Notes: a model not told the origin generated them from the letters alone. A stretch of DNA of 64,000 nt from a virus (IMGVR_UViG_3300028591_000092:107662-171661), one strand, 5' to 3'. Numbered from the stretch's first letter, positions 29,348-59,919 are shown. A program made the numbers and translations.

Positions 29348-29370
29348 TAGTCAAGTAAAGAGATACTTCG
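29348..29370 (+). promoter_or_regulatory. copy a of the conserved 23-nt motif TAGTCA..ACTTCG (abuts the 5' end of tRNA-Gln)
   Basis: tagtcaagtaaagagatacttcg. Confidence 0.4.
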
Positions 29371-29442
29371 ATTTTTTAGCTCATTAGGTAGAGCATAAAG
29401 TTTTGGTCTTTAAGGTAGTTGGTTCAATTCCAACAGAAATCA
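29370..29442 (+). tRNA. tRNA-Gln(TTG)
   Basis: Acceptor GATTTTT/AGAAATC, D-arm GCTC-ATTAGGTA-GAGC, anticodon arm TAAAG-TTTTGGT-CTTTA, T-arm GTTGG-TTCAATT-CCAAC. Confidence 0.7.
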
Positions 29443-29682
29443 ACATTTGTAATACTCTTTACGTTATTCTCACCTTATGGGTATCTCACATTGGTTTGTG
29501 TGATACCTTCTATTTTTTTAAATTGTTACAATTATGGAAGTTAAAGTAGTAGTCAGTCAGAAGGAGGCTGATGTTCAGGAGCTTAATAAGCTTTATGAAC
29601 AAATTCGTATTATTGCCAAAAGATATGGATTTAATCCTAGTAAAATCAACTCATCTTTGGATGAATTAAAAATGGCAATAGT

Positions 29683-30471
29683 ATGAAAGACATTTCTAAT
29701 ATGACCGTATATACAGAAGGTATGCGTAAAACTTTATTTGACAAATGTTATTTTGTTGATAAGGCAGATGCAAATATCTTTGTAGATTACGGTTGTGGAG
29801 ATGGATCATTGATTCGTCTTCTTAGTCAACTTTTTCCTGGTAATCTTTACATAGGATTTGATACTAATGTTCAGATGTTAGAACTGGCAAAGCAAGATAA
29901 AGAGGATAATGCTGTGTTTGTTGGAACTAAAGAAGAACTTATATCATTACTATTTGGGAAAACAGGTAAAAAGTGTCTTATACTTAACAGTGTGATACAT
30001 GAGATTCATTCTTATTGTACACCTGAAGAAATAGAAGAATTTTATTCTTTTATTTTCAGTGGTGTTTTTGACTATATCTGCATTCGTGATATGATGCCGT
30101 CTTACTCTATTAATCATATGAGTAATCCGTCATATGTAGATAAAGTAAAGCATGTTTTATCAACATGTCCTTTACCTTCTGCTATAACATATCTGAATGA
30201 TTTTGAAAGTATTTGGGGTTCTATTAATTTTAATAAGAACATGTATCATTTCTTTTTAAAATACAGATATACAGCAAATTGGAAGAGAGAGGTTGAAGAA
30301 AATTACTTTCCAATTTGTAAAGAAGAATTTAAAGAAACTATACCAAATACGTATGATATTATTTATTTAGAGGAATTTCTTCTTCCTTATTTAAAGAAAA
30401 TCATACAGGAAGATTTTGGTATTGTTTTGGATGAATGTACACACGTTAAGTTTGTATTAAAAAGAAAATAG
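29683..30471 (+). CDS. class I SAM-dependent methyltransferase
   Basis: Motif I VDYGCGDGS; 262 aa. Confidence 0.75.
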   Translation: MKDISNMTVYTEGMRKTLFDKCYFVDKADANIFVDYGCGDGSLIRLLSQLFPGNLYIGFDTNVQMLELAKQDKEDNAVFVGTKEELISLLFGKTGKKCLILNSVIHEIHSYCTPEEIEEFYSFIFSGVFDYICIRDMMPSYSINHMSNPSYVDKVKHVLSTCPLPSAITYLNDFESIWGSINFNKNMYHFFLKYRYTANWKREVEENYFPICKEEFKETIPNTYDIIYLEEFLLPYLKKIIQEDFGIVLDECTHVKFVLKRK

Positions 30472-30479
30472 GTATAATA

Positions 30480-31860
30480 ACCTAACGTTTGGAAGTTCGG
30501 ACATAAAACTTCAAAGAGGCGACGGTACAGACTTAGCTATTTGTTAAGTAGTCTCATAGACTGGTGATGAACTATTCCAGTCACTCTTTTCTCAATAACC
30601 GAAAGTGGGGGTCCTAAACATAAGTAGCGCTAAAATTATGAACAGGAGTATATAATGAAATACACGGAGAAAAGATTTTATTTTACTGCATAATAGTTCC
30701 GTAAGGACAAATCAGAGAGATACTACGTGCAGGTAATGGCTCTGATTTTTTTAATAGTGTTATTACTCCACTTAATAGAGTAATTAAAGTCCAATTCGGT
30801 CATAAGGACCACGAGAGATGATTGTCTAGGCTCTCACTTTTGACGGATGGAAAGACATCTAAGTTTAGTATTTTGAAAACAAAAGTACTCAGAATAATAC
30901 TCTGTGAAAGTATTTTTTTAAAATCAGAACGAATTGCAATAAGTTCTGATGGAGAGGTTGCAAACTCTCATGGATATGTAGTATAAAGGAGTACTCTGCT
31001 GGGCTAGTGGTTATAAATGCTGTACAAGCTACCAGACTACTCGGCGGCGGCGTAGGTTAGAATCCTACCATATCTTCTAAAATCCATCAAATGACACGAT
31101 GGTTGACTCCTATCAATAGAGTAGGTACAGGCTGTTATTAGAAGCCACACGTCCTCCCGTGAGTGTGAGGTGTCCCAAAGTTATTCTTTTACTGGCACAA
31201 AAGTTTTAGTCAAGAACAAAAAAAGACAATTTTGAGCATAGTCGTCTGATCAGGACTATGCCTTCTATCTAGAGTGATTCTCTAAGGTTGATTACCAATC
31301 ATCTGACACTTTAAAAGTAAGCCAATAGGGGAAACTTTGTCAAAGTTTTAATAGTTTACTGACGTAAGATCTCATCAATCGAAAACTATTTGTTAGTAAA
31401 TATGGTAGCTATTGAGTCGCTCTTAATAGTAGAGGTTCGATTCCTCTTTTACTTCTAAATCCAATTCTCACAATTGGTAGCAGGCTGTAATAGAAGCCAA
31501 GTTTATCACTATAATGCATAAAGTGACATCAAAGAGTTAGATGTAAAATAGGACTGGTCAACTCAAAAAAGATCTTGGGCATAATTGCTTGGTTGTAATT
31601 ATGCTTTCTAATTAGAAAATTTCTTAAAACTATGTACATAAGTTTAACATATCTATTGGGTTGGTTGTTGACTTAGTTTTAAGAGATACTTAAAAATCCA
31701 TTCTATGATACCATGTTTTCGTAGAATAAGTAAGTGACATGGCACAATGCAGTTTGGTGGATTCTGCTTATTTTAGATAATATAATATTGCCATATACAA
31801 CTTTGATAACCAATCAATTTTATATCTTCCCCTCCTAGAATCCGCTAGGAGGGGATAACC
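30480..31860 (+). ncRNA. ~1.4-kb ORF-free structured region with duplicated ~80-100-nt units (31055-31155 and 31425-31505), each holding a T-arm-like hairpin and a GGTA(G)CAGGCTGT.ATAGAAGCCA motif; group-I-like AAGTCCAATTC at 30787
   Basis: No ORF of 60 aa or more on either strand. GTAGGTTAGAATCCTAC and GAGGTTCGATTCCTC hairpins. AAGTCCAATTC is shared with the tRNA-Leu intron at 43985. Confidence 0.35.
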
Positions 31861-31868
31861 TAGGTATT

Positions 31869-32252
31869 ATGAAAGAAACAAAACATTATTTTGAAGTGGG
31901 AGGATTAAAAGTTTTTTGGAACTTTTGGCTATTACCTTCTAATTTTATTGCTATAACATTTTTTGGTTGTGTTTTGAGTAATTTAAAGTATGAAAATTTA
32001 AAGAAATATTTAGAGTCATATAAAGGATATGTTATGATTAATCATGAAAGAATCCATATGTTGCAAGCGAATTCTTTTATATTAGGTTATTTCACTTTTT
32101 ATATTTTATATCTTTGGTATTGGATAAAAGAATTATTTAAATATAGATTTAATAATAATCTTTCTTATTATAATATTCCTTTTGAAAAAGAAGCTTTTGA
32201 TAAAGAACTAGATTTTAAATATAGTTCTTCCAAATGGAAAAAATATATTTAA
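31869..32252 (+). CDS. membrane protein with HExxH-like motif (HERIH)
   Basis: ORF track; hydrophobic segments; HERIHMLQ. Confidence 0.45.
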   Translation: MKETKHYFEVGGLKVFWNFWLLPSNFIAITFFGCVLSNLKYENLKKYLESYKGYVMINHERIHMLQANSFILGYFTFYILYLWYWIKELFKYRFNNNLSYYNIPFEKEAFDKELDFKYSSSKWKKYI

Positions 32253-32904
32253 TTTTATTTTAATTTTTATTTACATAAATCAATCGACTACATTGACGAT
32301 GGATTTCTCATAGGAGATTAAATTCGGACAATTCAGTTGGGATTGCCTAAGTGGAATTTAATAATTGTCTATTAGAAAAACTCGTAGCTTTACCACCAAG
32401 TGTTGTTTTTTATTTATACTGGGCTGCTATTTAGCGTTATTCGAAAGCACAGATTGATTTATGTAACAGTTTTTATTATTTTGTACTGTAAACAAAATGA
32501 CGAAATTTATTACACCGATAGACAGTATATATAAGCTGCGTAATTGAGTTTGCTAGTTTCTAAAACAGTAAGTCGCCTAGCGCGTGTAAAACTAGAATCT
32601 TTTTACCTTTCACAAAGTAAGAAGTGTCCCGAATCATAGGGGTGAAAAGGGGTTTGTAATTAGCCTTAATAAAAAGATGAGTTGTGTGAGGTTACGCCGT
32701 CGTTAAAAAAGTAAATAACGAGACGGGGTTGGTAGAAGCTCTTCTGGATGATTACTATGCATTCATCGCACTTTGAATGTAAAGAAGAGGATATTAGTAT
32801 TCTAGTCATATTAAATTTAGATACATACTCTTACTAGAGGAGGATTGTGTTATGTATCTTTTATGCCGGGATAACTCTCGCCTAGTCAGCGGGCCTGGCT
32901 CCAA

Positions 32905-33870
32905 TAGTTGAAGGAAAACAACTTTAAATAAACCCAGTGAAGGTAAACACGTTAAAACCCGTAGTCTGCATCGTAGCAGAATTCATGTCCATGAAGCTTA
33001 TAGGACTAGGGTTTAGCAATTTACCGAAATAAAATTGCATTTTACTATAGTTGAAGGAAAACAACTTAAAAAACCCGTTGAAAGTTCAGCATACTAGTTT
33101 TGAGAACTTTACAAAGAACGATCGGTATAGAGGTTCCAAGAGAGTTGACAGGTAGTACAAGACTCTCAAATTTATAGTTGAAGGGAAACAACTTTAAAAA
33201 CCAAATTGAAATTGTAAATTAGAGAACTATATGCATTCTGGGTAAACCGCTAGGTCAGTGAACGTCTAATTTGCATCTTGCAAGATTTCAATTTTTATTT
33301 GAAGATACCGAGGATGAGTTGCAGATATGCAATCGGTGGAGGTTCACGATGATATTAGAGGTAATGCTCCGTAATCGGAATAATGTGAATGTAGGTATTA
33401 AAATTAGTTGAATGCAACAACTTTAAAAACATGCTACCGAGGCAAAAAGAGGGGAAGGTCCCAATTATCAATGACGTCCACGATAAAAGGGGGATTCGAA
33501 TGAAGATTCTAGAATTGATTTCGTTTCGTAGGTAGCATTCTATAGTTGAAGGAAAACAACTCTAATAAACCCTTGGCAGTGCGGATGTGACAAGTAAACT
33601 AACATTTATCCGCTCCTCGGGTTTTCGTAAGCTTTTGTCCATAAAAATGCTTACTGCGATCTAACACTGCAGAATTGTTAGAAGGAAGATAACACTGGGT
33701 TTATCCGTTTTGTAAGTGTGCGATAGATAACTTACTATGTTTAGATAAATTCATAGTCAAAAATTGTCCGTGTTTTAGTAATTTACCGTGAGGAATAAAG
33801 AACCGAAATTGCATTTTACTACAGTTGAAGGAAAACAACTTTGATAAAACCGTTGATGGAAAACAACTAA
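32905..33870 (+). repeat. array of 6 copies of a hairpin repeat (T)AGTTGAAGGAAAACAACTTTAAAAAACC separated by 130-280 nt unique segments
   Basis: Copies near 32905, 33044, 33174, 33405, 33540 and 33822. Inverted repeat AGTTG..CAACT. Two copies share a longer ATTGCATTTTACTA prefix. Confidence 0.6.
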
Positions 33871-34007
33871 GAAAACCCTTTCTTATAGTTATGAAGTAGT
33901 AGCTATACACGGCAGGCAGTGCTTCCGCCTTAATTTCTCACTTAATCTTAAAGTGATGGCTGATAGGAAAGACTATCAATTTTTATGTTTAATATAAATA
34001 ATATATT

Positions 34008-35252: not shown

Positions 35253-35271
35253 CTAAACAAATTAATTAACA

Positions 35272-36790: not shown

Positions 36791-36792
36791 TC

Positions 36793-39810: not shown

Positions 39811-39816
39811 AATATT

Positions 39817-46893: not shown

Positions 46894-46895
46894 TT

Positions 46896-47569: not shown

Positions 47570-47581
47570 AAAATTATAGTC

Positions 47582-49273
47582 ATGACAAAAATTAATTCAA
47601 GAAATGCACAATTAAAAAGTGCTTTAGGTGCTATGGCTCCTAAGGAAAGAGTTAAAGAAGTTTTAAATATTCCAAAAGAAGATACTAAGAACCGTCAAGG
47701 TTTTGCAGCATATTCTTTGCCGGAAGAACTTCGTTTAATTAGCATGCTTAACACTCTTAAGGTACAGGAACAATTTTATCGTACCGAAAATAAGCAAATG
47801 CAAGAACTTAGAGATCTTATTGAACGTATAGGATTTAAAGATCCTTATTTTGTAGCTCAGTGTATTAAATACTCTCGATGCATGGGCGAAGGCATGCGTG
47901 ATATTAATAATATTGCTGCAGCTTTATTAGCTCCTTTTGCCTCTGGCCAAGAATGGGCAAAACGTTTCTATAGTCTGTATAATAAGAAAACACAGCTTGG
48001 TGGTTGCATTTTCCGTGCAGATGATATGAATGCAATTAAAACAGTATTTTCTGCTTTAAATACTCCTAAGCTTTCAGCCGCAATGAAAGTTGGTTTTCGT
48101 AATACTTTGGAAGCTCTTGATGCATATCAGTTAGCTAAGTATGCAAAGACAACTCGTGATATTGCAAATCTTGTTCATCCTAATCCTGAGAAATCTAAAG
48201 CAGTTATAACTTTAACTGGTAAAGATCGAGATAAATTTCTTGATGGAAAAGGTTATGATGAAAGTGCTTCTGAAATTACAGTAAAAGTGCTTGATGCTAT
48301 TATGTCCGGTATTACTGTTTCAGCAGATACTTGGGAAGTAGCAAATTCAGAAGCAGGTCAAGAAGTTGCTAAAGCTGTTAAAGCTGGCAAAATTACTGCA
48401 GAAGAAGGTAAAAAGATTTTAGCACAAGCTAAAGATCAGAATTTCCAAGATCTTCTTAAAGAAGGAAAACTTGGTGTTCTTGCTGCTTTGCGTAATATTC
48501 GTCAGATTTTACAATATTCAGATCAGAAAACTGTAGATTTGTTATGTGCTCTTCTTTCCAATCCTGAAAAGATTCGTCAAGGAAAGATCATGCCTTATCA
48601 AATTGATATTGCATATGAAGTATTAAATACTGAATTTCGTTCTTACGATAAGTATACACAAGTTCGTGATGCTTTAGTTCGTGGTTATGAAACTTCTGTC
48701 CCTAATTTAGCTGAAGCTCTTCCTGGAAAGACTTTAGTTATTTTAGATTGTTCTGGTTCAATGTCTGCATTTCTTTATGATTCTGCAAATAAACGTCGTT
48801 TGTATTCTAGTTGTCTTGATAAAGCCTCTTTGATTGCTGCTACTATTGCTAAAGCAACTGGGGCTGATGTTATTCGTTTTGGATCAAGAGCAGAATGGAC
48901 AAGCTACAACAAGAATCATACTGTATTTGATATTGCACAACAATTTGCTGCATCTCGTATGGGATGCACTTATTTGAATTATGCTTGGGATCTTGCTCGT
49001 GTAAGTCATAAAGATTATGATCGAGTAATTATTCTCTCGGATAATGAGTGCAACTCAATGCAAAGAGTGTCAACTTCTTATAAGCAGTATGTGCACGACG
49101 TATGCTCACCATATGTTTATTGTTGTGATATGGCAGCTTATGGAACTACTCCACTTGCAGGCGATAAAGTTAATTATTATTGTGGCTATGGCTATAAGTT
49201 ATTTGACGATATTGCAAGTAACGAGTTTAACCCAATGCAACACATTGAGAAAATAAGAAAGGTAGTCATTTGA
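47582..49273 (+). CDS. Ro60/Rsr-like protein: alpha-helical TROVE-like N-terminal ~370 aa plus C-terminal vWA domain with MIDAS motif
   Basis: 563 aa. VILDCSGSMS (DxSGS MIDAS). Size and architecture match Ro60/Rsr. Surrounded by tRNA-like RNA genes. Confidence 0.6.
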   Translation: MTKINSRNAQLKSALGAMAPKERVKEVLNIPKEDTKNRQGFAAYSLPEELRLISMLNTLKVQEQFYRTENKQMQELRDLIERIGFKDPYFVAQCIKYSRCMGEGMRDINNIAAALLAPFASGQEWAKRFYSLYNKKTQLGGCIFRADDMNAIKTVFSALNTPKLSAAMKVGFRNTLEALDAYQLAKYAKTTRDIANLVHPNPEKSKAVITLTGKDRDKFLDGKGYDESASEITVKVLDAIMSGITVSADTWEVANSEAGQEVAKAVKAGKITAEEGKKILAQAKDQNFQDLLKEGKLGVLAALRNIRQILQYSDQKTVDLLCALLSNPEKIRQGKIMPYQIDIAYEVLNTEFRSYDKYTQVRDALVRGYETSVPNLAEALPGKTLVILDCSGSMSAFLYDSANKRRLYSSCLDKASLIAATIAKATGADVIRFGSRAEWTSYNKNHTVFDIAQQFAASRMGCTYLNYAWDLARVSHKDYDRVIILSDNECNSMQRVSTSYKQYVHDVCSPYVYCCDMAAYGTTPLAGDKVNYYCGYGYKLFDDIASNEFNPMQHIEKIRKVVI

Positions 49274-49301
49274 TTACCTTTCTTATAACTTATATTGACA
49301 T

Positions 49302-49324
49302 TAGTCAGTGATTCACTTACTTCG
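49302..49324 (+). promoter_or_regulatory. copy b of the 23-nt motif
   Basis: tagtcagtgattcacttacttcg. Confidence 0.4.
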
Positions 49325-49326
49325 AA

Positions 49327-49440
49327 TTTGGTCTGCTAAACCGGCGGTCACTGGTTCGAGTCCAGTATATATTATAATATATTAGCTCAGTTGGTAGAGC
49401 GCCTTTTGTTTTATGTGAATTACGTTTTCTATGTCAATTA
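49327..49440 (+). ncRNA. unresolved tRNA-like module. A 3' half (anticodon-arm-like GGTCTGCTAAACC, T-arm ACTGG-TTCGAGT-CCAGT, ATATATT-A) is followed within 2 nt by a 5' half (AATATAT-TA-GCTC-AGTTGGTA-GAGC); the two acceptor strands are complementary to each other.
   Basis: Seen in sequence. Could be a permuted/circularising tRNA-like RNA or two split genes. Confidence 0.3.
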
Positions 49441-49558
49441 TTTTAGTGAGGATAACACTTTAAAACCTTTTATCTATAGTTTTGGGCAAAACTAAGCTGC
49501 TTTAAGAGTTGTGCAGAGGGTAGGATATTCTGCAGATTGCCTATCAAAACTCTTATTC

Positions 49559-49690
49559 GGCGAGCTAGTTAAATAAAAAAGTTTCACTCTAGTCTATATT
49601 CTTCGTAAGATAGTCATGATTTAGAGTTACTTCGGTTATAACAATTTCCTCCTAAGAAATCATATCCAGGTTCGAGTCCTGGGCTCGCCA
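49559..49690 (+). tRNA. tRNA-Arg(CCT)-like with a ~65-nt D-loop insertion that contains motif copy c
   Basis: Acceptor GGCGAGC/GCTCGCC (7/7), D-stem GTTA/TAAC, anticodon arm ATTTC-CTCCTAA-GAAAT, T-arm CCAGG-TTCGAGT-CCTGG. Confidence 0.45.
49611..49635 (+). promoter_or_regulatory. copy c of the 23-nt motif (inside the tRNA-Arg D-loop insert)
   Basis: tagtcatgatttagagttacttcgg. Confidence 0.4.
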
Positions 49691-49700
49691 CTATAAACTA

Positions 49701-49722
49701 TAGTCATAGATGAGTTACTTCG
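49701..49722 (+). promoter_or_regulatory. copy d of the 23-nt motif
   Basis: tagtcatagatgagttacttcg. Confidence 0.4.
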
Positions 49723-49871
49723 TGCATTAGTAAGAAAAAATTATGAATTTTTTCCACGTAGCTGTCACTAATGGGACAGACGTTGTTATACCGTAACGAC
49801 AAGAACGGTATTGACAGATGGCAAAGACCTCTTTCTCATCTAGTTTTCTTAGTTTATTTACTATATCTGTA

Positions 49872-49894
49872 TAGTCAAAAGAACACTTACTTCG
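49872..49894 (+). promoter_or_regulatory. copy e of the 23-nt motif
   Basis: tagtcaaaagaacacttacttcg. Confidence 0.4.
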
Positions 49895-49949
49895 AAATAA
49901 ATTTGGGATTTTATTATATTATAGTGTTTTTATTGTTCTTACAGATTAT

Positions 49950-50025
49950 TCCCTCTTAGCTCAGTTGGTTTTAGAGTACGAAACTTTTAATTTTGGGGTC
50001 CTGGGTTCGAGTCCCAGAGGGGGAA
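49950..50025 (+). tRNA. tRNA-Lys(TTT)
   Basis: Acceptor TCCCTCT/AGGGGGA, D-arm GCTC-AGTTGGTTTTA-GAGT, anticodon arm CGAAA-CTTTTAA-TTTTG, T-arm CTGGG-TTCGAGT-CCCAG. Confidence 0.65.
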
Positions 50026-50054
50026 CTAAATAAATTCTATTAAATTAAAATCAT

Positions 50055-50378
50055 ATGATAATTGAATTTTGTGGATGTAATGGTATTTTAATGGAAGAAT
50101 CTAGATATTGGTTATTGTTCCAACATCATTATGATACAATGTATTATATTTATAATATAATATGTAAAAAATTAAATATAAAAGTAGATGTTTTTGAACA
50201 TAATTGGTCTCCAATTTTACATATTATATTTAAAGAAAGACTAAATAAAGTTCGTTGGTTATCAGGTGAATTTCCGGAATTTTATAATAAAAGAGATCTT
50301 TTTATATTTATTTCTTCTATAAATCAAATTTATGGTACAACAAATAATTTTGTTGATTTAAATTTTTATTCTTTATAA
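50055..50378 (+). CDS. small protein of the C-terminal (I/F)(I/V)(D/N)L family
   Basis: ends ..NFVDLNFYSL. Confidence 0.5.
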   Translation: MIIEFCGCNGILMEESRYWLLFQHHYDTMYYIYNIICKKLNIKVDVFEHNWSPILHIIFKERLNKVRWLSGEFPEFYNKRDLFIFISSINQIYGTTNNFVDLNFYSL

Positions 50379-50451
50379 TAATAAATTTAGCGGCTATCGT
50401 ATAACGGTTAGTACTTAAGATTTTTTAAAAAGTATTGAAATAAAAAATAAT

Positions 50452-50536
50452 GGCGCTATCGACTAGTGGTTTAGGTCGCTGCTCTTTCAAGGCAGTTGGA
50501 TGTAAATCCTCACGAGTTCGAATCTCGTTGGCGCTA
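50452..50536 (+). tRNA. tRNA-Glu(TTC) with a 16-nt hairpin (GGAT-GTAA-ATCC) inserted in the variable region
   Basis: Acceptor GGCGCTA/TGGCGCT (G1-U72), D-arm GACT-AGTGGTTTA-GGTC, anticodon arm CTGCT-CTTTCAA-GGCAG, T-arm ACGAG-TTCGAAT-CTCGT. Confidence 0.6.
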
Positions 50537-50549
50537 CAATATACCATAA

Positions 50550-50572
50550 TAGTCATGTAAATACTTACTTCG
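50550..50572 (+). promoter_or_regulatory. copy f of the 23-nt motif, followed by T-arm-like hairpin GCCAG-TTCGAGT-CTGGT
   Basis: tagtcatgtaaatacttacttcg. Confidence 0.4.
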
Positions 50573-50692
50573 TTTATGCCAGTTCGAGTCTGGTTTTTCG
50601 TACATTACGAAAGTGGCGGAAAGGTAAACGCGCAAATCTGAAACATTTGTTAATAACATCATATCAGTATTTATAATTTTCTTTATGGTTTT

Positions 50693-50826
50693 GGTCCTCT
50701 CGTCTAGTGGGATAACTAGGATATTCAGCAAGTAAGAGATGTAATGATAAGCTTCATCTTATCTATGTTATCAAAGGACATTAAATCGCTCGGTTTAAGA
50801 CAGAAGTTCGAATCTTCTGGGGACTA
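50693..50826 (+). ncRNA. tRNA-Glu-derived tRNA-like RNA, third member of the TCGCTCGG-loop family. ~70-nt D-loop insertion; stem TTAAA/TTTAA; T-arm AGAAG-TTCGAAT-CTTCT.
   Basis: See finding. Confidence 0.5.
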
Positions 50827-50843
50827 CTAAAATTTTTAAAATT

Positions 50844-51290
50844 ATGATTTATATAGCTGGACCTTTTTCTACGGAGCAAGAAAGAGCTTCATTAGAAAAA
50901 ATGATTACATTAGTAAGAAAAAGATATCCTTTAGAAGATCTTTATATTCCTATGGATTTTAAAGTTGAAGGAGATTTTCAAAAATTAGATGGCACTTGGA
51001 ATCTTCCAAATCATGAGTGGGCAAAGAAAGTATATGAAGCAGACGTTGAACATTTATTATCTTCTAGAATGGTATTTGCTATGTATTGTGGTAGAATTCA
51101 TTCTTCTGGTAGTATTTGGGAAATTGGATATGCCTGTGGTAAAGAAATTCCTGTAATTTTATATATTCCTAAGTGGGCTAGTAATGAAATGTCCCTTATG
51201 GTTTTAAATGGAGTTTATGGTTATATAGATGAAAATAGTATGATTTATCCTTTTACTCCAAAATTACTAAAATCTTTTAATCAAAAATAA
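50844..51290 (+). CDS. nucleoside 2-deoxyribosyltransferase-like protein
   Basis: MIYIAGPF and SGSIWEIGYA motifs. Confidence 0.6.
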   Translation: MIYIAGPFSTEQERASLEKMITLVRKRYPLEDLYIPMDFKVEGDFQKLDGTWNLPNHEWAKKVYEADVEHLLSSRMVFAMYCGRIHSSGSIWEIGYACGKEIPVILYIPKWASNEMSLMVLNGVYGYIDENSMIYPFTPKLLKSFNQK

Positions 51291-51291
51291 T

Positions 51292-53818: not shown

Positions 53819-54097
53819 ATGACTTATTTTATAATTATTTTAGTACAACTTTTTTTATTATCTGTTGTATTTATGACCTTTGAGTACGAAAATAAGATTT
53901 GGAATGTATTAGCAATATTTAGTGCTGTTGTTCCTATATTAGGAATAATAATATTACCAATTCTTATTGGAGTAAGCGCTGTTAAAGCCTGTGAAGATTA
54001 TAGGTGGCAAACACCAACTATAAAAATTAAAGAAACAAAATTGAATAAATATTTATATTCTACTCATTTTAAAAACAAAAAAGATGAAAAATTTTAA
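53819..54097 (+). CDS. small 2-TM membrane protein (NfeD-like partner candidate)
   Basis: ORF track; overlaps the downstream SPFH gene. Confidence 0.4.
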   Translation: MTYFIIILVQLFLLSVVFMTFEYENKIWNVLAIFSAVVPILGIIILPILIGVSAVKACEDYRWQTPTIKIKETKLNKYLYSTHFKNKKDEKF

Positions 54098-54914
54098 ATT
54101 TCTATTTTCTTTGGCACTATGTATAGTGTCTTTGGCTTTTACAAGTTGTATTACTTGTGTAGATTCTGCAGAAGTTGGCATTAAGTTTAATAAACTGTCT
54201 TTGACAGACCAAGGAACTCTTGATGCTGTAACTGTAACAGGTTATACTAGTTATAATCCTTTTACAACTTCTATTTATACGTACGAAACTCGTGTACGAT
54301 CTGCGAACTATAAACCATTTATAGTTCAAACTAAGGATGGTTCTAAATTTTCTATGGATCCTAATCTTAATTATCATTTGATTCGAGAGAAAGCTATTGA
54401 TGTTTTTTCAAAGTATCGTAAATCTTTGGATTATATTGAATCTAACTATATGCAAACTGCTATATATGATGCTTATCGAATTAATGCTAATAAATATACT
54501 GCAGATGAATTAGTTGCTAATCGAGCACAGTTTGAAGATAATGTTAAAGCTATGCTTGATACAACTTTGCGCGCAGAAGGATTTCATGTAGAACAATTTA
54601 CTTCGCAGATTGAACCGCCTCAAAGTTTAACTGACATGATTAATGCTAAAGTTGCAGCTGTTCAAGCAGCACTTAAAGCAGAAAATGAAGTTAAAAAAGC
54701 TGAAGCAGATGCAAAAATTGCAGTAGCTAAAGCTGAAGGTGAAGCAAAAGCAATGCGTGTGCGTGCTGATGCTGAGGCTTATTATAATATGAAAATCTCT
54801 AGTTCTCTTTCAGATCGCATTGTTCAAGAAGATTTCCTTGAAAAATGGGATGGAAAGATGCCAGGGTATTATATGCCTAGTGGAAATGCTGGAGTATTTA
54901 AAATGCTTCCATAG
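54084..54914 (+). CDS. SPFH/Band-7 (HflK/C, flotillin-like) domain lipoprotein
   Basis: Lipobox FTSC; Ala/Glu-rich coiled segment AEGEAKAMRVRADAEAY typical of SPFH proteins. Confidence 0.65.
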   Translation: MKNFKFLFSLALCIVSLAFTSCITCVDSAEVGIKFNKLSLTDQGTLDAVTVTGYTSYNPFTTSIYTYETRVRSANYKPFIVQTKDGSKFSMDPNLNYHLIREKAIDVFSKYRKSLDYIESNYMQTAIYDAYRINANKYTADELVANRAQFEDNVKAMLDTTLRAEGFHVEQFTSQIEPPQSLTDMINAKVAAVQAALKAENEVKKAEADAKIAVAKAEGEAKAMRVRADAEAYYNMKISSSLSDRIVQEDFLEKWDGKMPGYYMPSGNAGVFKMLP

Positions 54915-55690: not shown

Positions 55691-55752
55691 AATTCTTATA
55701 GTTGACATAAGGTTTTTTAATGCTTTCTCAATTGAATTTATTATGTTAGAGG

Positions 55753-56055: not shown

Positions 56056-56874
56056 ATTTGTGGAAGAGACGAAGAATAGTAATCCTTCTGCATCCATAAC
56101 TCGTATCAATGAAGATACGTTTTGTGTAGTTAACTTTATGCTTCCTGGTGCTTTTGCTAAAAGAAATTCCAATGCAAACACTAAAGAGGAAATCAAAAAA
56201 ATGAAAATGTCTCCTATCTTGGATGAAAACAAGAAAGGGCGTTTTATTTGTCCTACTTATGGTGCTCCTGGAAGAAAGCTTCAACCTGGCGAGCCTCTGC
56301 CGAAACATTTTTATGTTGGTCCAAAACATTATAATCCGGCCACATATCACACTTGTGCTTTGCGTAGAGTGTATCATTCTGAAGCTTTGCAAGCACTAAG
56401 TTCTGATGAAGCAAGGCCTTACGGCTATACTAAAAAACAATGGGATACGATGGGTGTGTATAATCGTCTTTCTGCTCAATTTAAGATTGATGCAGAAGAA
56501 TTGTTCCCAGGTAATCCAAGTGTTACTTTTGAATTTGTGAACTAATGAAACATGTTATTTCAGCAACGTTGATACCGACAAATGGCATCAATGTCAAATT
56601 ATCCAAAGATCTTTTTTTAGAGAATTTCATTGACACTTCTGAAGATATCTTAGACAGATTTCCTGTAGGAAGCGCTGTTGAAATAATCTACGATCATTTC
56701 TTTTATGATGACAAGGGTGCTCTTCAAATGAAACATTGTAGATGTATTATAAAACAGTCTAAAAGAGGCGTTTTTAATAGGTCCATTGAAAATGTTCAAG
56801 TTGAAAAAAATATTAGATCTTGTTTATATACTTATAATCAAAAAAGAAAATTTCTAAAGAATAAGCTCTCTTAG
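56039..56874 (+). other. two hypothetical genes (56039..56545, 56545..56874)
   Basis: ORF track. Confidence 0.5.
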
Positions 56875-56899
56875 AGGGCTTATTTTATTTGGGCCGTAG

Positions 56900-57214
56900 A
56901 GGAATTGATTCACATGTTAGCTATTATAAGACAGCAGAGTGATGACTTAATCATCAAAACAAAAATAAATGGCAGATCTTATTCTACCTATAGAATGGCT
57001 GCGTAAGCCATTTCTCTGGTTGTTGAGTAACCAAGGAACATAATACTCATAGTTGGTTTCTTTGTTTAGTAAAACAAAGTGGTGGAGGTAGCGAGTCGAA
57101 TAGACCAGTTACCCCGTGATAAGCAACACGTAAAAAAGCAAGCTGTATAGTTCTTATAAAAAGCGGTGGAGAAGACTGGAGTTCGAATCTCCAACGGTCC
57201 ACAATTAATTGAAA
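56900..57214 (+). ncRNA. possible ~315-nt tRNA-like or intron-containing RNA. 5' GGGCCGT pairs with 3' ACGGTCC flanking T-arm TGGAG-TTCGAAT-CTCCA.
   Basis: Seen in sequence; internal structure unresolved. Confidence 0.3.
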
Positions 57215-57227
57215 ATCAAATAGTTAT

Positions 57228-57659
57228 ATGATCACATATCAAGAATTAACATTATGTTATGTTCCTTCTACTGCAAAATTAGCATATAGTATATTTAAAC
57301 CCACAAAAGAAGTGGATTTTAATAAAGTTATTGCTGATTTTGAAAAATCAAATACAAAGTGTTTTATAGCACTTGATAATGAAAAAGTAGTTGGATTAAT
57401 AACACTAAATATTTTTAAACCATTATTTACTGATTTTCCTAAGGCTCATATTTCTTGGATTGCTGTAGATGAAGCGTACAGGCAAAAAGGAATAGCAAAA
57501 ATTCTTATGCAAATGGCAGAAGAATTTTGTAAGCATAAGAAATGTAAATATATGGATTTATCTTCAAGAAATGTTCCAGAAAGAATGGCTGCACATGCCT
57601 TATATGATTCTTTTGGATTTAAAAGTGATACACAGAAATATTTTATTAAACATTTTTAA
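57228..57659 (+). CDS. GNAT family N-acetyltransferase
   Basis: Motif A-like WIAVDEAYRQKGIAKILM. Confidence 0.7.
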   Translation: MITYQELTLCYVPSTAKLAYSIFKPTKEVDFNKVIADFEKSNTKCFIALDNEKVVGLITLNIFKPLFTDFPKAHISWIAVDEAYRQKGIAKILMQMAEEFCKHKKCKYMDLSSRNVPERMAAHALYDSFGFKSDTQKYFIKHF

Positions 57660-57662
57660 GTT

Positions 57663-57986
57663 ATGGAAAAAGATTACACTGTAATTTTTCATCTAGGAGA
57701 AAAACGTGGTACTACTGTAGCTGTTCTTACTTCTAATGAATCTGGAGTAACGTATCGTGGTATTGCTCATTGCAATCCTTCTGATACATATAATCAAGAA
57801 GTAGGAGCTCGTATTGCTGAAGCCCGTGCTCGTAAGAAGTTTTTTAAAGCTGAAGCAAATGAAGCTAAACTCCAAGTTGAAATAGCAAAACGTCTTCTCG
57901 CAGTTGCCGAGCGTACTGCTCAAAAGAAAGTTAATCGTTTTGAACGAGAAAGCAACTGGTTGGATAAATATGTAAAAACTATTTAA
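57663..57986 (+). CDS. hypothetical protein
   Basis: ORF track. Confidence 0.5.
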   Translation: MEKDYTVIFHLGEKRGTTVAVLTSNESGVTYRGIAHCNPSDTYNQEVGARIAEARARKKFFKAEANEAKLQVEIAKRLLAVAERTAQKKVNRFERESNWLDKYVKTI

Positions 57987-57998
57987 CCTAGAATGGTT

Positions 57999-58073
57999 GG
58001 GTCTATCGTCTAGTGGTTTAGGACGTTTCTCTTACAAGGAAAAGATTCGGTGGTTCGAATCCACCTTGACCCA
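57999..58073 (+). tRNA. tRNA-Val(TAC)
   Basis: Acceptor GGGTCTA/TTGACCC, D-arm GTCT-AGTGGTTTA-GGAC, anticodon arm TTTCT-CTTACAA-GGAAA, T-arm GGTGG-TTCGAAT-CCACC. Confidence 0.7.
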
Positions 58074-58079
58074 CAAAAA

Positions 58080-58153
58080 GGGCTTGCAGCTCTAATTAGT
58101 AGAGCCCTATATTTGCAATGTAGTCGTTGCGCGTTCGAATCGAGTCAGGTTCA
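58080..58153 (+). tRNA. tRNA-Ala(TGC) (acceptor carries three G-U pairs)
   Basis: D-arm GCTC-TAATTAGTA-GAGC, anticodon arm CTATA-TTTGCAA-TGTAG, T-loop TTCGAAT. Confidence 0.5.
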
Positions 58154-58169
58154 CTAAATTATATAATGT

Positions 58170-58451
58170 ATGATAAAAAGTAATGAACAATTAGCAAGAC
58201 GTATAATATATTATTTTTTAAAAGCAAATCCTTCAAAAAAACCAATTGATTACCTTAAAGATAATTATGAATTATATTATGCACGTACTTTTTATTGGGG
58301 TTATACTGATGAAGGATTTGATTTCTGGCAAGCTATATATGAAATAAAATTTAAAAGATCAGAAAAACGTGTTAGAGAATTTTTAAAAAAATATTTTTTT
58401 AATAAAGAATATCATCCTAATATAATAAATTTAAATTATGTCGAAGACTAA
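58170..58451 (+). CDS. small family protein (ends IINLNYVED)
   Basis: ORF track. Confidence 0.5.
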   Translation: MIKSNEQLARRIIYYFLKANPSKKPIDYLKDNYELYYARTFYWGYTDEGFDFWQAIYEIKFKRSEKRVREFLKKYFFNKEYHPNIINLNYVED

Positions 58452-58576
58452 TAAAAAGAAATCTTCTTTTTCAGAAAGTGATAAAAAATTAAATTTTTGT
58501 GGTTCTAAAAATAGACACAATAAAATAGACATCAATAATGAATTAGATAATTTTTTATCAGAAGATTATTAATATA

Positions 58577-58664
58577 GGAAGTTTGGCAGAGTTGATCTAT
58601 TGCACTGGACTTGAAATCAAGCGGGCTGTAAAATGTTCCGGAGATTTGAATCATTCAGCTTCCA
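58577..58664 (+). tRNA. tRNA-Ser(TGA), class II
   Basis: Acceptor GGAAGTT/AGCTTCC, loop CTTGAAA, long variable arm; overall resembles canonical tRNA-Ser(UGA). Confidence 0.6.
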
Positions 58665-58666
58665 CC

Positions 58667-58749
58667 GGAGAATTACCAAAGTTGGTGAATGTGGCACACT
58701 GCTAACGTGCTATGTTAGAAATGGCGCAAAGGTTCGAGTCCTTTATTCT
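58667..58749 (+). tRNA. tRNA-Ser(GCT), class II, abutting the previous tRNA
   Basis: Acceptor GGAGAAT/ATTCTTC, anticodon arm GCACA-CTGCTAA-CGTGC, T-arm AAAGG-TTCGAGT-CCTTT. Confidence 0.55.
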
Positions 58750-58789
58750 TCGCAACATTATTCTAGGCCTGAATATGACTAATAGGAAA

Positions 58790-58866
58790 GACTATTCGTT
58801 CGTAGAACAATGGAAGTTCACCAGAATTTAATAGTCTGGAGATTGTGGTTCGAATCCACACGAATG
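58790..58866 (+). ncRNA. tRNA-like element with stem CCAGA/TCTGG closing a 9-nt loop ATTTAATAG; T-arm TGTGG-TTCGAAT-CCACA
   Basis: Seen in sequence; D-arm not resolvable. Confidence 0.3.
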
Positions 58867-59122
58867 TCAACTTGTTACTTGAGTTGGTCACTAGGAGAGT
58901 AACAGCCCTTGGACAAAGACCAATGTCACGAAGGGAGTGGTGAGAGAGGAATACATAACACCCTGAAAGATGCGGTTTCTCCAAACAGGTACCAAAAGTG
59001 GACACGATGCCCTCCTTAAAGCCTGTTTTATTATACCTTCAAGTTTTGCACTCTAATGTGTGCTATAATGGCATGTCTGTATGATCGGTGATACTTTGTA
59101 TTAGAAACCTTTGAAGGTTTAT

Positions 59123-59196
59123 GGTGTTTGTGGCCGAGTGGTTTAGGCGCAAGATTGTGGTTCTTGTTTACGCAGGTTCGACTCCTGTCAAATACC
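59123..59196 (+). tRNA. tRNA-His(GTG) with G-1/C73
   Basis: G-1 plus GTGTTTG/CAAATAC acceptor, anticodon arm CAAGA-TTGTGGT-TCTTG, T-arm GCAGG-TTCGACT-CCTGT, C73. Confidence 0.6.
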
Positions 59197-59201
59197 CTTA
59201 A

Positions 59202-59274
59202 GACACGTTAGTTCAGTAGGTTAAAATGTTAGCCTGTCACGCTAATGTCACGGGTTCGAATCCCGTACGTGTCG
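59202..59274 (+). tRNA. tRNA-Asp(GTC)
   Basis: Acceptor GACACGT/ACGTGTC, anticodon arm TTAGC-CTGTCAC-GCTAA, T-arm ACGGG-TTCGAAT-CCCGT. Confidence 0.7.
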
Positions 59275-59280
59275 CAATAT

Positions 59281-59357
59281 ATGACCGAGATAGCTCAGTC
59301 GGTTAGAACTGCATCTTACAAATGTTCTTGTTAAGAGTTCTAATCTCTTTTGTCATT
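59281..59357 (+). tRNA. degenerate tRNA-like (possible Val-TAC-like): D-arm GCTC-AGTCGGTTA-GAAC, loop CTTACAA, T-arm AAGAG-TTCTAAT-CTCTT
   Basis: Imperfect acceptor and anticodon stems. Confidence 0.3.
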
Positions 59358-59440
59358 CAAAAACACAGAGTAAGGTGACTGATAGAACAGTCCCTGTAAG
59401 TTCTTGTGATTCGCAACAAGTTTATAAATGTTCTGCAATC

Positions 59441-59512
59441 ACTCCGCTAGTTCAATGGATAGAACAGATGGTTACGGACCATCTAATCAGCGTTCGAATC
59501 GTTGGTGAAGTA
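59441..59512 (+). tRNA. tRNA-Arg(ACG)
   Basis: Acceptor ACTCCGC/GTGAAGT (6/7), D-arm GTTC-AATGGATA-GAAC, anticodon arm GATGG-TTACGGA-CCATC, T-arm CAGCG-TTCGAAT-CGTTG. Confidence 0.55.
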
Positions 59513-59528
59513 CTGTAAATTTAATACA

Positions 59529-59885
59529 ATGAATGATTTTCATACTTTAGTCCACACACAAGATTGGAAAGATTATAAATCTCATTATATTTTTGAGATA
59601 AATGGTCATGGAATGATTCGTATTACTCAATATAATAATGAATTTGAACTTTCAGATTTATTTGTAACAGATGGGTATCGTCAACATGGGATGGGAACCT
59701 ATCTATTAAATATTGCAATAGAATATTGCAAAGAGTTAGCAGATCATGGAAGAATTCTAATTTCTACTAATGATCATTCAGAAGAATTTGCTGAAGAATG
59801 GTATAAGAAAATTGGATTTGTATTTGACCATGTTGAAACTCCTATTTGTTATCCTTTTGAAGAAACTGGAGAAATAGAATTTTGA
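59529..59885 (+). CDS. GNAT family N-acetyltransferase (ORF 59502..59885; start probably at MNDFHTL downstream of the tRNA)
   Basis: YRQHGMGTYLLNIAIEY motif A-like. Confidence 0.6.
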   Translation: MNDFHTLVHTQDWKDYKSHYIFEINGHGMIRITQYNNEFELSDLFVTDGYRQHGMGTYLLNIAIEYCKELADHGRILISTNDHSEEFAEEWYKKIGFVFDHVETPICYPFEETGEIEF

Positions 59886-59896
59886 AAAACAAGATA

Positions 59897-59919
59897 TAGT
59901 AGTTAAAGAGATACTTCGG
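59897..59919 (+). promoter_or_regulatory. copy g of the 23-nt motif
   Basis: tagtagttaaagagatacttcgg. Confidence 0.35.

What the first reader, a model, noticed from the sequence alone, without database searches (positions are those of the whole stretch)
29348..59919. Seven copies of a 23-nt motif TAGTCA(W)G....ACTTACTTCG(R) adjacent to or within tRNA genes
Copies at 29348, 49302, 49611, 49701, 49872, 50550 and 59897. Most end within 0-60 nt of a tRNA 5' end or a T-arm-like hairpin; one lies inside the D-loop insert of tRNA-Arg(CCT). Upstream TATA-rich tracts precede several copies. This is a candidate phage-specific promoter, an RNA processing or endonuclease site, or the conserved core of a small inserted element.
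Basis: seen in the sequence. Interest (0 to 1): 0.6.

Follow-up and report, generated by a model that had tools for sequence, protein, structure and literature searches.

The report
Phage Y-RNA-like stem module near Ro60
The repeated 23-base motif is not a promoter. It is one strand of a conserved RNA stem shared by a family of small tRNA-like RNAs, which crAss-like phages encode beside their Ro60 (TROVE) RNA-binding protein, and it probably marks that protein's previously unrecognised RNA partners.

Summary
All seven copies exist at the stated coordinates, all on the + strand (7 found, 0.19 expected). The conserved blocks are TAGTMR and WTACTTCG, separated by 8-10 variable bases.

That variable spacer is the key. 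In six copies it pairs with a stretch 25-112 nt downstream. A second conserved block (..UUCU) follows, then an outer helix that pairs with the bases just upstream of TAGT.

The unit is therefore P1 / internal loop (UAGUMA x ..UUCU) / P2 / UUACUUCG-[payload]-A-rich strand. Payloads are a real tRNA-Gln, two permuted YrlA-like tRNA mimics, two short loops and one unknown 112-nt insert. The seventh copy is the same module circularly permuted and grafted into the D region of tRNA-Arg(CCU).

The module sits beside a Ro60/TROVE gene at 47582-49273. In IMG/VR, 56 of 76 loci chosen only for a Ro60-like gene carry the exact motif: 130 copies on the gene strand and none on the other. Variants lie next to the TROVE genes of PhiCrAss001, cr111_1 and csAssE-Sib. 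No Rfam family matches it.

Best reading: a new, multi-copy subfamily of phage Y-RNA-like RNAs whose stem is the Ro60 docking site. Binding itself is inferred, not shown.

The parts
47582..49273 (+). Ro60/Rsr (TROVE + vWA) homologue, 563 aa; the presumed protein partner of the modules
   Evidence: Pfam vWA_Ro60 4e-5 and TROVE 2e-3, both below the gathering cut-offs. PHROG 850 'RNA-binding protein' 1.6e-28. A family profile hits PDB 9kop/9l5y (Thermus phage phiLo Ro60) at 3.7e-37, plus human and Xenopus Ro60 and D. radiodurans Rsr. The MIDAS-like DxSGS motif is invariant.
29343..29475 (+). Module A. P1 AGGTG/CACCT (29343-47 / 29471-75); 5' loop TAGTCA 29348-53; P2 GTAAAGAG/CTCTTTAC (29355-62 / 29455-62); ATACTTCG 29363-70; payload is canonical tRNA-Gln(UUG) 29370-29442 plus an AU-rich linker; 3' loop GTTATTCT 29463-70
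49294..49438 (+). Module B, directly after the Ro60-like ORF. P1 ATTGACAT/ATGTCAAT; TAGTCA 49302-07; P2 GTGATTCAC/GTGAATTAC (49308-16 / 49415-23); TTACTTCG 49317-24; payload 49325-49414 is a permuted tRNA mimic (T arm, AT hairpin, D arm); 3' loop GTTTTCT 49424-30
   Evidence: Rfam YrlA partial hit 49338-49411, 41.3 bits, below the gathering score of 69. Folds (z = -3.8)..
49559..49690 (+). tRNA-Arg(CCU) carrying the module in circularly permuted form (49586-49634). A-rich 49570-79; P2 3' strand ACTCTA 49586-91; 3' loop GTCTATATTCT 49592-602; P1 reduced to a capped mini-hairpin TCGTAAGA 49603-10; TAGTCA 49611-16; P2 5' strand TAGAGT 49622-27; TTACTTCG 49627-34, which also supplies the D stem and loop
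   Evidence: Acceptor GGCGAGC/GCTCGCC, anticodon arm with CCT and T arm read from the sequence. Rfam tRNA partial hit 49625-49682. The MFE is a cloverleaf with an extra arm, z = -2.7.
49693..49857 (+). Module D. P1 ATAAACTA/TAGTTTAT; TAGTCA 49701-06; P2 TAGATGAG/CTCATCTA (49707-14 / 49835-42); TTACTTCG 49715-22; 112-nt payload of unknown nature; 3' loop GTTTTCT 49843-49
   Evidence: z = -3.0.
49865..49946 (+). Module E, stand-alone with a short loop. P1 ATCTGTA/TACAGAT; TAGTCA 49872-77; P2 AAGAACAC/GTGTTTTT; TTACTTCG 49887-94; 29-nt AU-rich payload; 3' loop ATTGTTCT 49932-39. It ends 3 nt before tRNA-Lys (49950).
   Evidence: z = -3.2.
50543..50689 (+). Module F. P1 ACCATAA/TTATGGT; TAGTCA 50550-55; P2 TGTAAATAC/GTATTTATA (50556-64 / 50667-75); TTACTTCG 50565-72; payload is a second permuted tRNA mimic (T arm 50578-94, hairpin TTTCGTA/TACGAAA, D-like arm); 3' loop ATTTTCT 50676-82
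59891..59964 (+). Module G, stand-alone and the weakest copy. P1 AAGATA/TACCTT with one A.C mismatch; TAGTAG 59897-902; P2 TAAAGAG/CTCTTTA (59904-10 / 59944-50); ATACTTCG 59911-18; 25-nt payload; 3' loop TTGGTTCT 59951-58. It ends 3 nt before tRNA-Gln (59968).
   Evidence: The P2 helix is in the MFE fold, but the fold energy is no better than shuffles.

Best explanation
The motif is the 5' strand of a conserved, portable RNA stem module. Reading outward to inward it has five parts.

- An outer helix, P1.
- A conserved internal loop or imperfect helix: 5' UAGUMA opposite 3' ..(A/U)UUCU.
- An invariant UUACUUCG on the 5' strand, abutting the payload.
- An A-rich 3' strand.

The module defines a multi-copy family of small non-coding RNAs of the Y RNA / YrlA kind. 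They are encoded next to, and on the same strand as, the phage's Ro60 (TROVE) protein.

Shown here: the architecture, its covariation, its spread in viral contigs, its tight strand-specific linkage to Ro60-like genes, and the tRNA-like nature of most payloads.

Inferred: the stem-bulge-stem with its invariant nucleotides is the docking site for the phage Ro60 ring, as in known Y RNAs. The payload (tRNA mimic or real tRNA) and the A-rich strand would then present the complex to a second partner, for example host PNPase or tRNA-handling enzymes. The RNAs are probably released from the early polycistronic transcript by the tRNA-processing enzymes that cut the flanking tRNAs.
For: (1) Architecture. 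In five window copies P1, P2 and the ..UUCU block are found by an explicit search; none are found on the - strand or in the reversed sequence. MFE folds reproduce P1 and P2.

(2) Generality. A DNA-pattern scan of IMG/VR gave 179 distinct 5' motifs. Of these, 64 have the full architecture, against 3-9 in shuffled or reversed-strand controls.

(3) Covariation. On 82 trimmed instances, 98% of cells are paired and all 11 pairs show double changes. The covariation score is 1.0, against 0.23 shuffled and <=0.22 for slid partners. The two outermost pairs were not used for selection and are still ~90% paired. RNAalifold recovers P2 on an unsupervised alignment.

(4) Ro60 link, forward direction. 16 of 31 validated pattern-derived loci hold a Ro60-like gene within about 5 kb.

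(5) Ro60 link, reverse direction. Of 76 loci fetched only by Ro60-like homology, 56 carry the exact motif: 130 copies on the gene strand and 0 on the other strand in 1.23 Mb. Nine more carry close variants. The nearest copy is within 1 kb of the gene in 33 of 56 and within 3 kb in 52 of 56.

(6) The protein is a genuine TROVE/Ro60 relative.

(7) Payloads. Of 92 instances, 28 are permuted YrlA-like mimics, 14 acceptor-less tRNA-likes, 7 ARAGORN tRNAs, 30 short and 13 other. Rfam YrlA hits fall below threshold: 41 bits in the window, 32-39 bits full-length in relatives.

(8) Module variants lie beside the TROVE genes of cr111_1, csAssE-Sib and cultured PhiCrAss001, although the proteins are only 22-30% identical.

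(9) Precedent. Thermus phage phiLo Ro60 binds neighbouring stem-bulge-stem 'Yrl' RNAs and recruits host PNPase (PMC12135203). YrlA RNAs are tRNA mimics encoded beside rsr (PMC4201824).
Against: No binding data exist for this family. The link to Ro60 is genomic only and could partly reflect shared ancestry of one phage lineage that has both features.

The published Ro-recognition motif (GNCGAAN0-1G / CGAA) is only partly present. CG is invariant, but the next base is A in about 40% of instances, and CGAA occurs in 2 of 7 window copies.

Rfam's YrlA model never reaches its gathering score.

Two window copies lie 18 kb upstream and 10 kb downstream of the Ro60-like gene. 15 of 31 validated loci show no Ro60 gene in the stretch fetched.

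About 18 invariant nucleotides is a degree of conservation also seen in small ribozymes.
Confidence: 0.7

Rival explanations
1. A Ro60-independent processing cassette. The roughly 20-bp P1/P2 stem formed by leader and trailer would be a cleavage platform, for example for RNase III, with RNase P cutting after UUACUUC. It would excise tRNAs and small RNAs from the polycistronic early transcript.
For: Among all validated instances (window and related loci), the last G of the motif is tRNA nucleotide 1 in 5 of 7 embedded ARAGORN tRNAs. Modules sit 2-9 nt from flanking tRNAs in the arrays. The stem length suits RNase III (sequence; inference).
Against: RNase III and RNase P do not need about 18 invariant nucleotides. 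Most payloads are not tRNAs that need release: 30 are short loops and 28 are permuted mimics. In the permuted copy inside tRNA-Arg(CCU), cleavage would destroy the tRNA. The tight strand-specific linkage to Ro60-like genes is left unexplained.
Confidence: 0.12
2. A new class of small self-cleaving ribozyme that matures the ends of tRNA or tRNA-like RNAs. This would be analogous to the HDV-like theta ribozymes next to phage tRNAs, and to the pistol ribozyme found elsewhere in this window.
For: Invariant nucleotides are concentrated in loops and junctions between two covarying helices. Circular permutation occurs, as in hammerhead and twister. The conserved UUACUUC|G ends exactly at tRNA position 1. 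A pistol ribozyme at 24280-24352 shows that this phage uses ribozymes.
Against: No Rfam ribozyme family matches any copy, even at E <= 1-5. No pseudoknot or covarying tertiary pair was found; position 5 of UAGUMA varies without a compensating change. Cleavage would break tRNA-Arg(CCU). The Ro60 linkage is unexplained.
Confidence: 0.05
3. The conserved core of a small mobile or duplicating insertion element that spreads among tRNA genes, with no function of its own at the RNA level.
For: There are several copies per genome in different contexts, including inserts inside tRNA-like genes in the window and in PhiCrAss001.
Against: The helices covary while the loops stay invariant across phages whose Ro60 proteins are only 33-57% identical. 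That indicates selection on an RNA structure rather than recent copying. No terminal repeats, target duplications or associated endonuclease gene were seen next to the copies (sequence).
Confidence: 0.05
4. A phage-specific promoter for tRNA and small-RNA genes.
For: The length is about 23 nt, all copies share one orientation, and they lie upstream of RNA genes.
Against: The spacer covaries with a downstream complement and the upstream flank pairs with a downstream flank. One copy is permuted inside a tRNA. Most tRNAs in the window have no copy. The sigma-70-type scan finds nothing tied to the motif. The early promoters of a crAss-like virion RNA polymerase showed no common motif (bioRxiv 10.1101/2020.03.07.982082).
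Confidence: 0.02

Closest known systems
Bacterial and phage YrlA-type Y RNAs (Rfam RF02553; Chen et al. 2014, PMC4201824)
   Same: They are encoded next to a Ro60/Rsr gene and co-oriented with it. The 5' and 3' ends pair into a bulged stem. The body is a tRNA mimic with T arm, acceptor-like hairpin and D arm in permuted order (window 49325-49414 and 50573-50666). The 3' strand is A-rich. A CG(AA) element sits on the 5' strand. There are several paralogues per genome.
   Different: The stem carries a different and much more strongly conserved signature (UAGUMA / ..UUCU / UUACUUCG) and two extra helices beyond the CGAA position. Rfam's model scores only 32-41 bits against a gathering score of 69. 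There are up to 7 copies per window. The same stem is also attached to real tRNAs, to acceptor-less tRNA-likes where UUCG pairs with CGAN as a mini acceptor stem, to short loops, and in permuted form inside tRNA genes.
Yrl1/Yrl2 of Thermus phage phiLo, bound by phiRo60 (PDB 9KOP, 9L5Y; PMC12135203)
   Same: A phage-encoded Ro60 homologue (profile E = 3.7e-37 to this family) has neighbouring small stem-bulge-stem RNAs. Binding and a RYPER-like complex with host PNPase were shown experimentally there.
   Different: The phiLo RNAs were defined by a CGAA motif in a bulge and have no tRNA-like domain reported. The sequence signature found here was not described. The hosts here are Bacteroidota and the phages are crAss-like.
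Metazoan Y RNAs with Ro60
   Same: The logic is the same: a conserved bulged helix formed by the RNA ends docks on the outside of the Ro60 ring, and a variable module recruits or mimics something else.
   Different: The binding-site sequence differs (GGUCCGA / UUGAC..). They have no tRNA-like domain and are Pol III transcripts.
tRNA-flanking self-cleaving ribozymes of recoded gut phages (HDV-like theta ribozymes; recalled from memory, not tested here) and the pistol ribozyme at 24280-24352
   Same: They are small conserved structured RNAs in the tRNA regions of stop-codon-recoded gut phages.
   Different: No sequence or structure match to any Rfam ribozyme. The module wraps around its payload rather than lying beside it.

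Membership tests
Y RNA / YrlA | Encoded close to, and on the same strand as, a Ro60/Rsr (TROVE) gene | tested here: met
   The window Ro60-like ORF is 47582-49273, and module B starts 21 nt after its stop codon. 56 of 76 Ro60-selected loci have the exact motif (65 of 76 with variants). All 130 copies are on the gene strand and none on the other. The nearest copy is within 3 kb in 52 of 56.
Y RNA / YrlA | 5' and 3' ends pair into a long stem interrupted by a conserved bulge or internal loop | tested here: met
   P1 / loop / P2 is found in 64 of 179 motif hits against 3-9 in controls. Covariation is and folds.
Y RNA / YrlA | GNCGAAN0-1G (CGAA) motif on the 5' strand, proposed as the Ro60 contact | tested here: inconclusive
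   CUUCG is invariant, but the following base is A in only 36 of 91 instances. CGAA is present in 2 of 7 window copies. Where the payload is YrlA-like, the sequence reads UUCGAAU(G).
Y RNA / YrlA | tRNA-like domain (T arm, acceptor-like hairpin, D arm) and a score at or above the Rfam RF02553 gathering score | tested here: not met
   The domain is present in 2 window copies and in 28 of 92 instances overall. However, scores are 41.3, 31.9 and 39.3 bits against a gathering score of 69. Other copies carry other payloads.
Y RNA / YrlA | Physically bound by Ro60 | not testable with these tools
   Needs EMSA, RIP or CLIP.
Ro60/TROVE protein (the partner) | TROVE HEAT-repeat ring plus vWA domain with a MIDAS motif | tested here: met
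   The profile matches PDB 9kop/9l5y at 3.7e-37 over nearly the full length, plus Ro60 and Rsr. There are weak Pfam TROVE and vWA_Ro60 hits. DxSGS is invariant. No 3D model was made.
Promoter (sigma-70-type or phage RNAP) | Acts as DNA upstream of a start site, with no requirement for complementarity to downstream sequence | tested here: not met
   The spacer and the upstream flank covary with downstream partners. There is a permuted copy inside a tRNA. The consensus scan is not enriched at the copies.
Known self-cleaving ribozyme classes (hammerhead, twister, twister-sister, pistol, hatchet, HDV-like, hairpin) | Match to the family covariance model or core nucleotides | tested here: not met
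   There is no such hit over 49200-50900 at E <= 5, or over six loci with minimal copies at E <= 1. Cleavage activity itself was not tested.

The most novel reading that the evidence does not exclude
The module is a portable docking handle that the phage grafts onto bona fide tRNAs as well as onto mimics. Examples are tRNA-Gln(UUG) as a leader/trailer stem and tRNA-Arg(CCU) as an extra arm. Under this reading the phage Ro60 ring, and whatever it tethers such as PNPase, is directed to the phage's own tRNA pool. This would be a virus-encoded, Ro60-based system for tRNA maturation, quality control or protection acting early in infection. An alternative novel reading is that the module is itself a new catalytic RNA that sets tRNA 5' ends.
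Probability: 0.2. Interest if true: 0.8.

Novelty: new variant of a known kind. Interest (0 to 1): 0.64.

Why it matters
crAss-like phages are among the most abundant viruses of the human gut. Their early-expressed TROVE/Ro60 protein (gp96 in PhiCrAss001) has no known RNA partner or function.

This module gives a precise, sequence-defined set of candidate partners. It is present in a culturable model phage, so the question becomes directly testable by EMSA, RIP-seq and deletion.

It also extends the Y RNA concept. The same protein-docking stem is joined to tRNA bodies in at least four topologies, including real tRNAs. That speaks to how Y RNAs arose from tRNAs and to how phages manipulate tRNA or RNA-decay pathways.

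Practically, these loci are currently mis-annotated or unannotated: split 'tRNAs', pseudo-tRNAs or empty intergenic space. A covariance model would fix that.

Tried and rejected
I replaced it with a two-block pattern.
- Megablast of 45-64 kb against INPHARED found nothing.
- I first read 49325-49414 as a circularly permuted, split tRNA gene needing splicing. I dropped this when Rfam showed the YrlA-type arrangement.
- I considered hammerhead, hairpin, twister, pistol and hatchet by eye and by Rfam. There was no match.
- I tested pairing of UAGUAA with UUACU as a switch or pseudoknot. Position 5 varies with no compensating change, so at most 3 bp are conserved.
- The bacterial genome scan gave 120 hits. 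Only 3 pass the architecture filter, which is background level, and none has a Ro60 gene nearby. The module therefore looks phage-specific in that truncated sample.
- The highly expressed early intergenic RNAs of crAss-like phage phi14:2 do not contain the module.
- The over-long tRNA-like genes at 30972-31076 and 50693-50827 do not contain it either.
- I did not build a covariance model. The payload length (16-260 nt) defeats a single model built from MAFFT alignments, so I used an explicit pairing search with shuffled controls instead.

Full report
**Observation.** The pattern TAGT-N10-16-TACTTCG occurs seven times in the window, at the coordinates given. All copies are on the + strand. Dinucleotide-preserving shuffles give 0.19 on average and never reach 7. 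The distance between the two conserved blocks varies by two bases, and '(W)G' is not conserved. TAGTCA alone is not enriched. TACTTCG is enriched: 10 found against 4.1 expected, and seven of the ten are the motif copies.

**Context.** The window is 32% G+C. It carries more than 20 tRNA genes, including a suppressor tRNA(CUA), and a pistol ribozyme. Its first 23 kb, on the - strand, read as long ORFs only if TAG is sense. The large terminase is 27-41% identical to those of Crassvirales and of uncultured human-gut phages. The window therefore comes from a TAG-recoded relative of crAss-like phages, and the motif lies in its + strand region of small ORFs and tRNAs.

**What the motif is part of.** I aligned the copies with their flanks. 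The variable 'spacer' between the two blocks is complementary to a stretch downstream of whatever follows the motif, and the pairs differ from copy to copy:

| Copy | Spacer / complement |
|---|---|
| 29348 | TAAAGAG / CTCTTTA |
| 49302 | GTGATTCAC / GTGAATTAC |
| 49701 | TAGATGAG / CTCATCTA |
| 50550 | TGTAAATAC / GTATTTATA |

After that complement comes a second conserved block ending in UUCU. After that come bases complementary to those just upstream of TAGT.

The unit is thus P1 / internal loop (5' UAGUMA, 3' ..UUCU) / P2 / UUACUUCG-[payload]-A-rich strand. An explicit search for this architecture finds five complete units in the window. It finds none on the - strand and none in the reversed sequence. 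The 59897 copy is a sixth unit with one P1 mismatch. Thermodynamic folds reproduce P1 and P2, with z-scores of -3 to -3.8 for four of the units.

**The seventh copy.** Copy 49611 is the same module circularly permuted. Its order is A-rich tract, P2 3' strand..UAUUCU, a capped mini-hairpin in place of P1, UAGUCA, P2 5' strand, UUACUUCG. It sits as an extra arm in the D region of a tRNA-Arg(CCU) whose acceptor, anticodon and T arms are intact.

**Payloads in the window:**
- a canonical tRNA-Gln(UUG), whose first nucleotide is the last G of the motif;
- two permuted tRNA mimics with the order T arm, hairpin, D arm; one gives a partial Rfam YrlA hit of 41 bits against a gathering score of 69;
- two short AU-rich loops;
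- one 112-nt insert of unknown nature.

- Of 179 distinct 5' motifs in all loci then held, 64 have the full architecture. Controls with shuffled or reversed strands gave 3-9.
- After more loci were added there were 92 non-redundant instances.
- In these, TAGT, A6, TACTTCG and the terminal UUCU of the 3' loop are invariant or nearly so. The helices are free to vary, and an A-rich tract precedes the P2 3' strand.
- On an ungapped alignment of 82 trimmed instances, 98% of cells are paired and all 11 pairs show changes on both sides. The covariation score is 1.0, against 0.23 for shuffles and <=0.22 for slid partners.
- Most of these pairs were used to select the instances, so the control is the fairer test. 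The two outermost pairs were not selected and are still about 90% paired.
- RNAalifold on an unsupervised MAFFT alignment of 29 short instances recovers P2 on its own.
- AGUAA can pair with UUUCU apart from a U.U mismatch. In phage cr111_1 the equivalent segments (AGUGA / UUACU) pair fully. The 'internal loop' is therefore better described as a conserved imperfect helix flanked by bulges, that is, a stem-bulge-stem.
- No Rfam family matches any copy, including minimal 60-70 nt ones.
- Of the first 120 pattern hits in bacterial genomes, only 3 pass the architecture filter, which is background level.

**Link to Ro60.** Module B starts 21 nt after the stop codon of a 563-aa ORF (47582-49273). This ORF gives weak Pfam hits to TROVE and to the Ro60 vWA domain and a PHROG 'RNA-binding protein' hit at 1.6e-28. 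As a family profile it matches the solved Ro60 homologue of Thermus phage phiLo (9KOP/9L5Y) at 3.7e-37, as well as human and Xenopus Ro60 and Deinococcus Rsr.

The association holds in both directions.
- Loci found only by the DNA pattern and passing the architecture filter contain a Ro60-like gene within about 5 kb in 16 of 31 cases.
- Loci found only by Ro60-like protein homology (76 loci, 1.23 Mb; 330 relatives exist in IMG/VR) contain the exact motif in 56 cases. That is 130 copies on the strand of the gene and none on the other strand.
- Nine more of those loci carry close variants such as TAGCAA, TGGTAA, TTACTTCA and TTACATCG.
- The nearest copy lies within 1 kb of the gene in 33 of 56 loci and within 3 kb in 52 of 56.
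- The motif stays almost unchanged while the proteins diverge to 33% identity.
- Recognisable variants lie beside the TROVE genes of cr111_1 and csAssE-Sib. In cultured PhiCrAss001 at least five copies occupy the 900-nt gap after gp96, and two of them are permuted inserts in tRNA-like genes. The proteins in these phages are only 22-30% identical to the window's.

**Interpretation.** These are the properties of Y RNAs, and specifically of the YrlA type. YrlA RNAs are small RNAs encoded beside Ro60/Rsr. Their paired ends form the bulged Ro60-binding stem and their body mimics tRNA (PMC4201824). For a phage Ro60, binding to neighbouring stem-bulge-stem RNAs and recruitment of host PNPase have been shown experimentally (PMC12135203).

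I therefore read the motif as the 5' strand of the Ro60-docking stem of a new, multi-copy subfamily of phage Y-RNA-like RNAs.

Four steps are inferred and not shown:
- that Ro60 binds this stem;
- which nucleotides it contacts;
- where the mature ends lie;
- what the complex does.

The A-rich strand and the tRNA-like payload are plausible handles for a second partner such as PNPase or tRNA enzymes. That is speculation by analogy.

**Differences from known Y RNAs.**
- The published Ro-recognition element GNCGAAN0-1G is only partly present. CG is invariant, but A follows in about 40% of instances.
- The strongly conserved UAGUMA / ..UUCU / UUAC elements and the two helices outside the CG position have no described counterpart.
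- Rfam's YrlA model stays well below threshold.
- The same stem is joined to tRNA bodies in several topologies. It appears at the anticodon side (the classic permuted YrlA form, 28 of 92). It appears at the acceptor side, where UUCG pairs with CGAN after the T stem as a 3-4 bp acceptor in all six cases where the D arm directly follows the motif. It appears around complete tRNAs (7 of 92; 5 start exactly on the motif's G). It appears as an arm inside tRNA genes. It also stands alone with a short loop (30 of 92).

**Rivals.**
- A Ro60-independent processing stalk (RNase III, RNase P) fits the tRNA-embedding copies. It does not explain the invariant nucleotides, the non-tRNA payloads, the intra-tRNA copy or the Ro60 linkage.
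- A new self-cleaving ribozyme cannot be excluded by computation. Its support is limited to the concentration of invariant nucleotides in junctions, the permutation, and the presence of a pistol ribozyme elsewhere in the window.
- A promoter is excluded by the covariation and the permuted copy.
- A selfish insertion element is unlikely, given covarying helices with invariant loops across deep divergence.

**Literature.** Papers on PhiCrAss001 and Crassvirales note the early-expressed TROVE protein only as 'a possible ribonucleoprotein component' (PMC8375218, PMC10136315). No paper in the searchable library links crAss-like phages with Y RNAs. The library is incomplete, so prior description elsewhere cannot be ruled out.

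**Verdict.** The promoter reading is wrong. The motif is half of a conserved RNA stem module that defines a widespread subfamily of Y-RNA-like RNAs, absent from Rfam, associated with the Ro60/TROVE genes of crAss-like and related phages. I class it as a new variant of a known kind. It is moderately to highly interesting because it gives a testable RNA partner for an uncharacterised early protein of very abundant gut phages.

Noticed in passing
window 24280-24352 (+): Pistol self-cleaving ribozyme. The Rfam hit is 68.2 bits against a gathering score of 34.5, over the full model, and overlaps the end of ORF 23778-24299.
   Followed up: no
window 1-23000 (- strand); tRNA at 17426-17504 (-): The late/structural module reads through only if TAG is a sense codon: ORFs >=200 aa rise from 13 to 22. 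A suppressor tRNA with anticodon CUA is encoded nearby. The + strand early region uses the standard code.
   Followed up: partly
window 30972-31076 and 50693-50827 (+): Two over-long tRNA-like genes (105 and about 135 nt) have intact acceptor and T arms and internal inserts that are not the module. They may be intron-containing or degenerate tRNAs.
   Followed up: partly
window 49439-49556 (+): A 120-nt spacer between module B and tRNA-Arg(CCU) has a long-range complement (TAAGAGTT ... AAACTCTTA) and an internal hairpin. It may be another small structured RNA.
   Followed up: no
window 49253-49286 (+): A 15-bp hairpin followed by a T-rich run straddles the stop codon of the Ro60-like ORF. It looks like a terminator and lies just before module B.
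   Followed up: no
window ~50390-50425 (+): A fragment resembling a tRNA 5' half (acceptor strand plus D arm) has no 3' half. It lies upstream of tRNA-Glu 50452-50537.
   Followed up: no
L003 1533-1737; L004 131-288; L002 94-436; L028 2791-3216; L099 6780-7120: Related phages show weak hits to archaeal-type RNase P RNA (29-38 bits against a gathering score of 84). L002 has a clear tmRNA gene (101 bits against a gathering score of 47). L028 and L099 give weaker, below-threshold tmRNA hits (34.5 and 29.2 bits). All lie in the same tRNA regions.
   Followed up: no
window 54084-54914 (+) and 12537-14027 (-): An SPFH/band-7 protein lies a few kb from the Ro60-like gene, as gp91 does relative to gp96 in PhiCrAss001. 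A GroEL-like chaperonin lies in the late module.
   Followed up: no
L325 (PhiCrAss001 MH675552, complement) 5900-6640: The 900-nt 'empty' gap after the TROVE gene gp96 holds at least five module variants (TAGTGTA-P2-TTACTTCA ... NNTGTTCT). Two tRNA-like genes there carry the permuted module. None is annotated in the record.
   Followed up: partly
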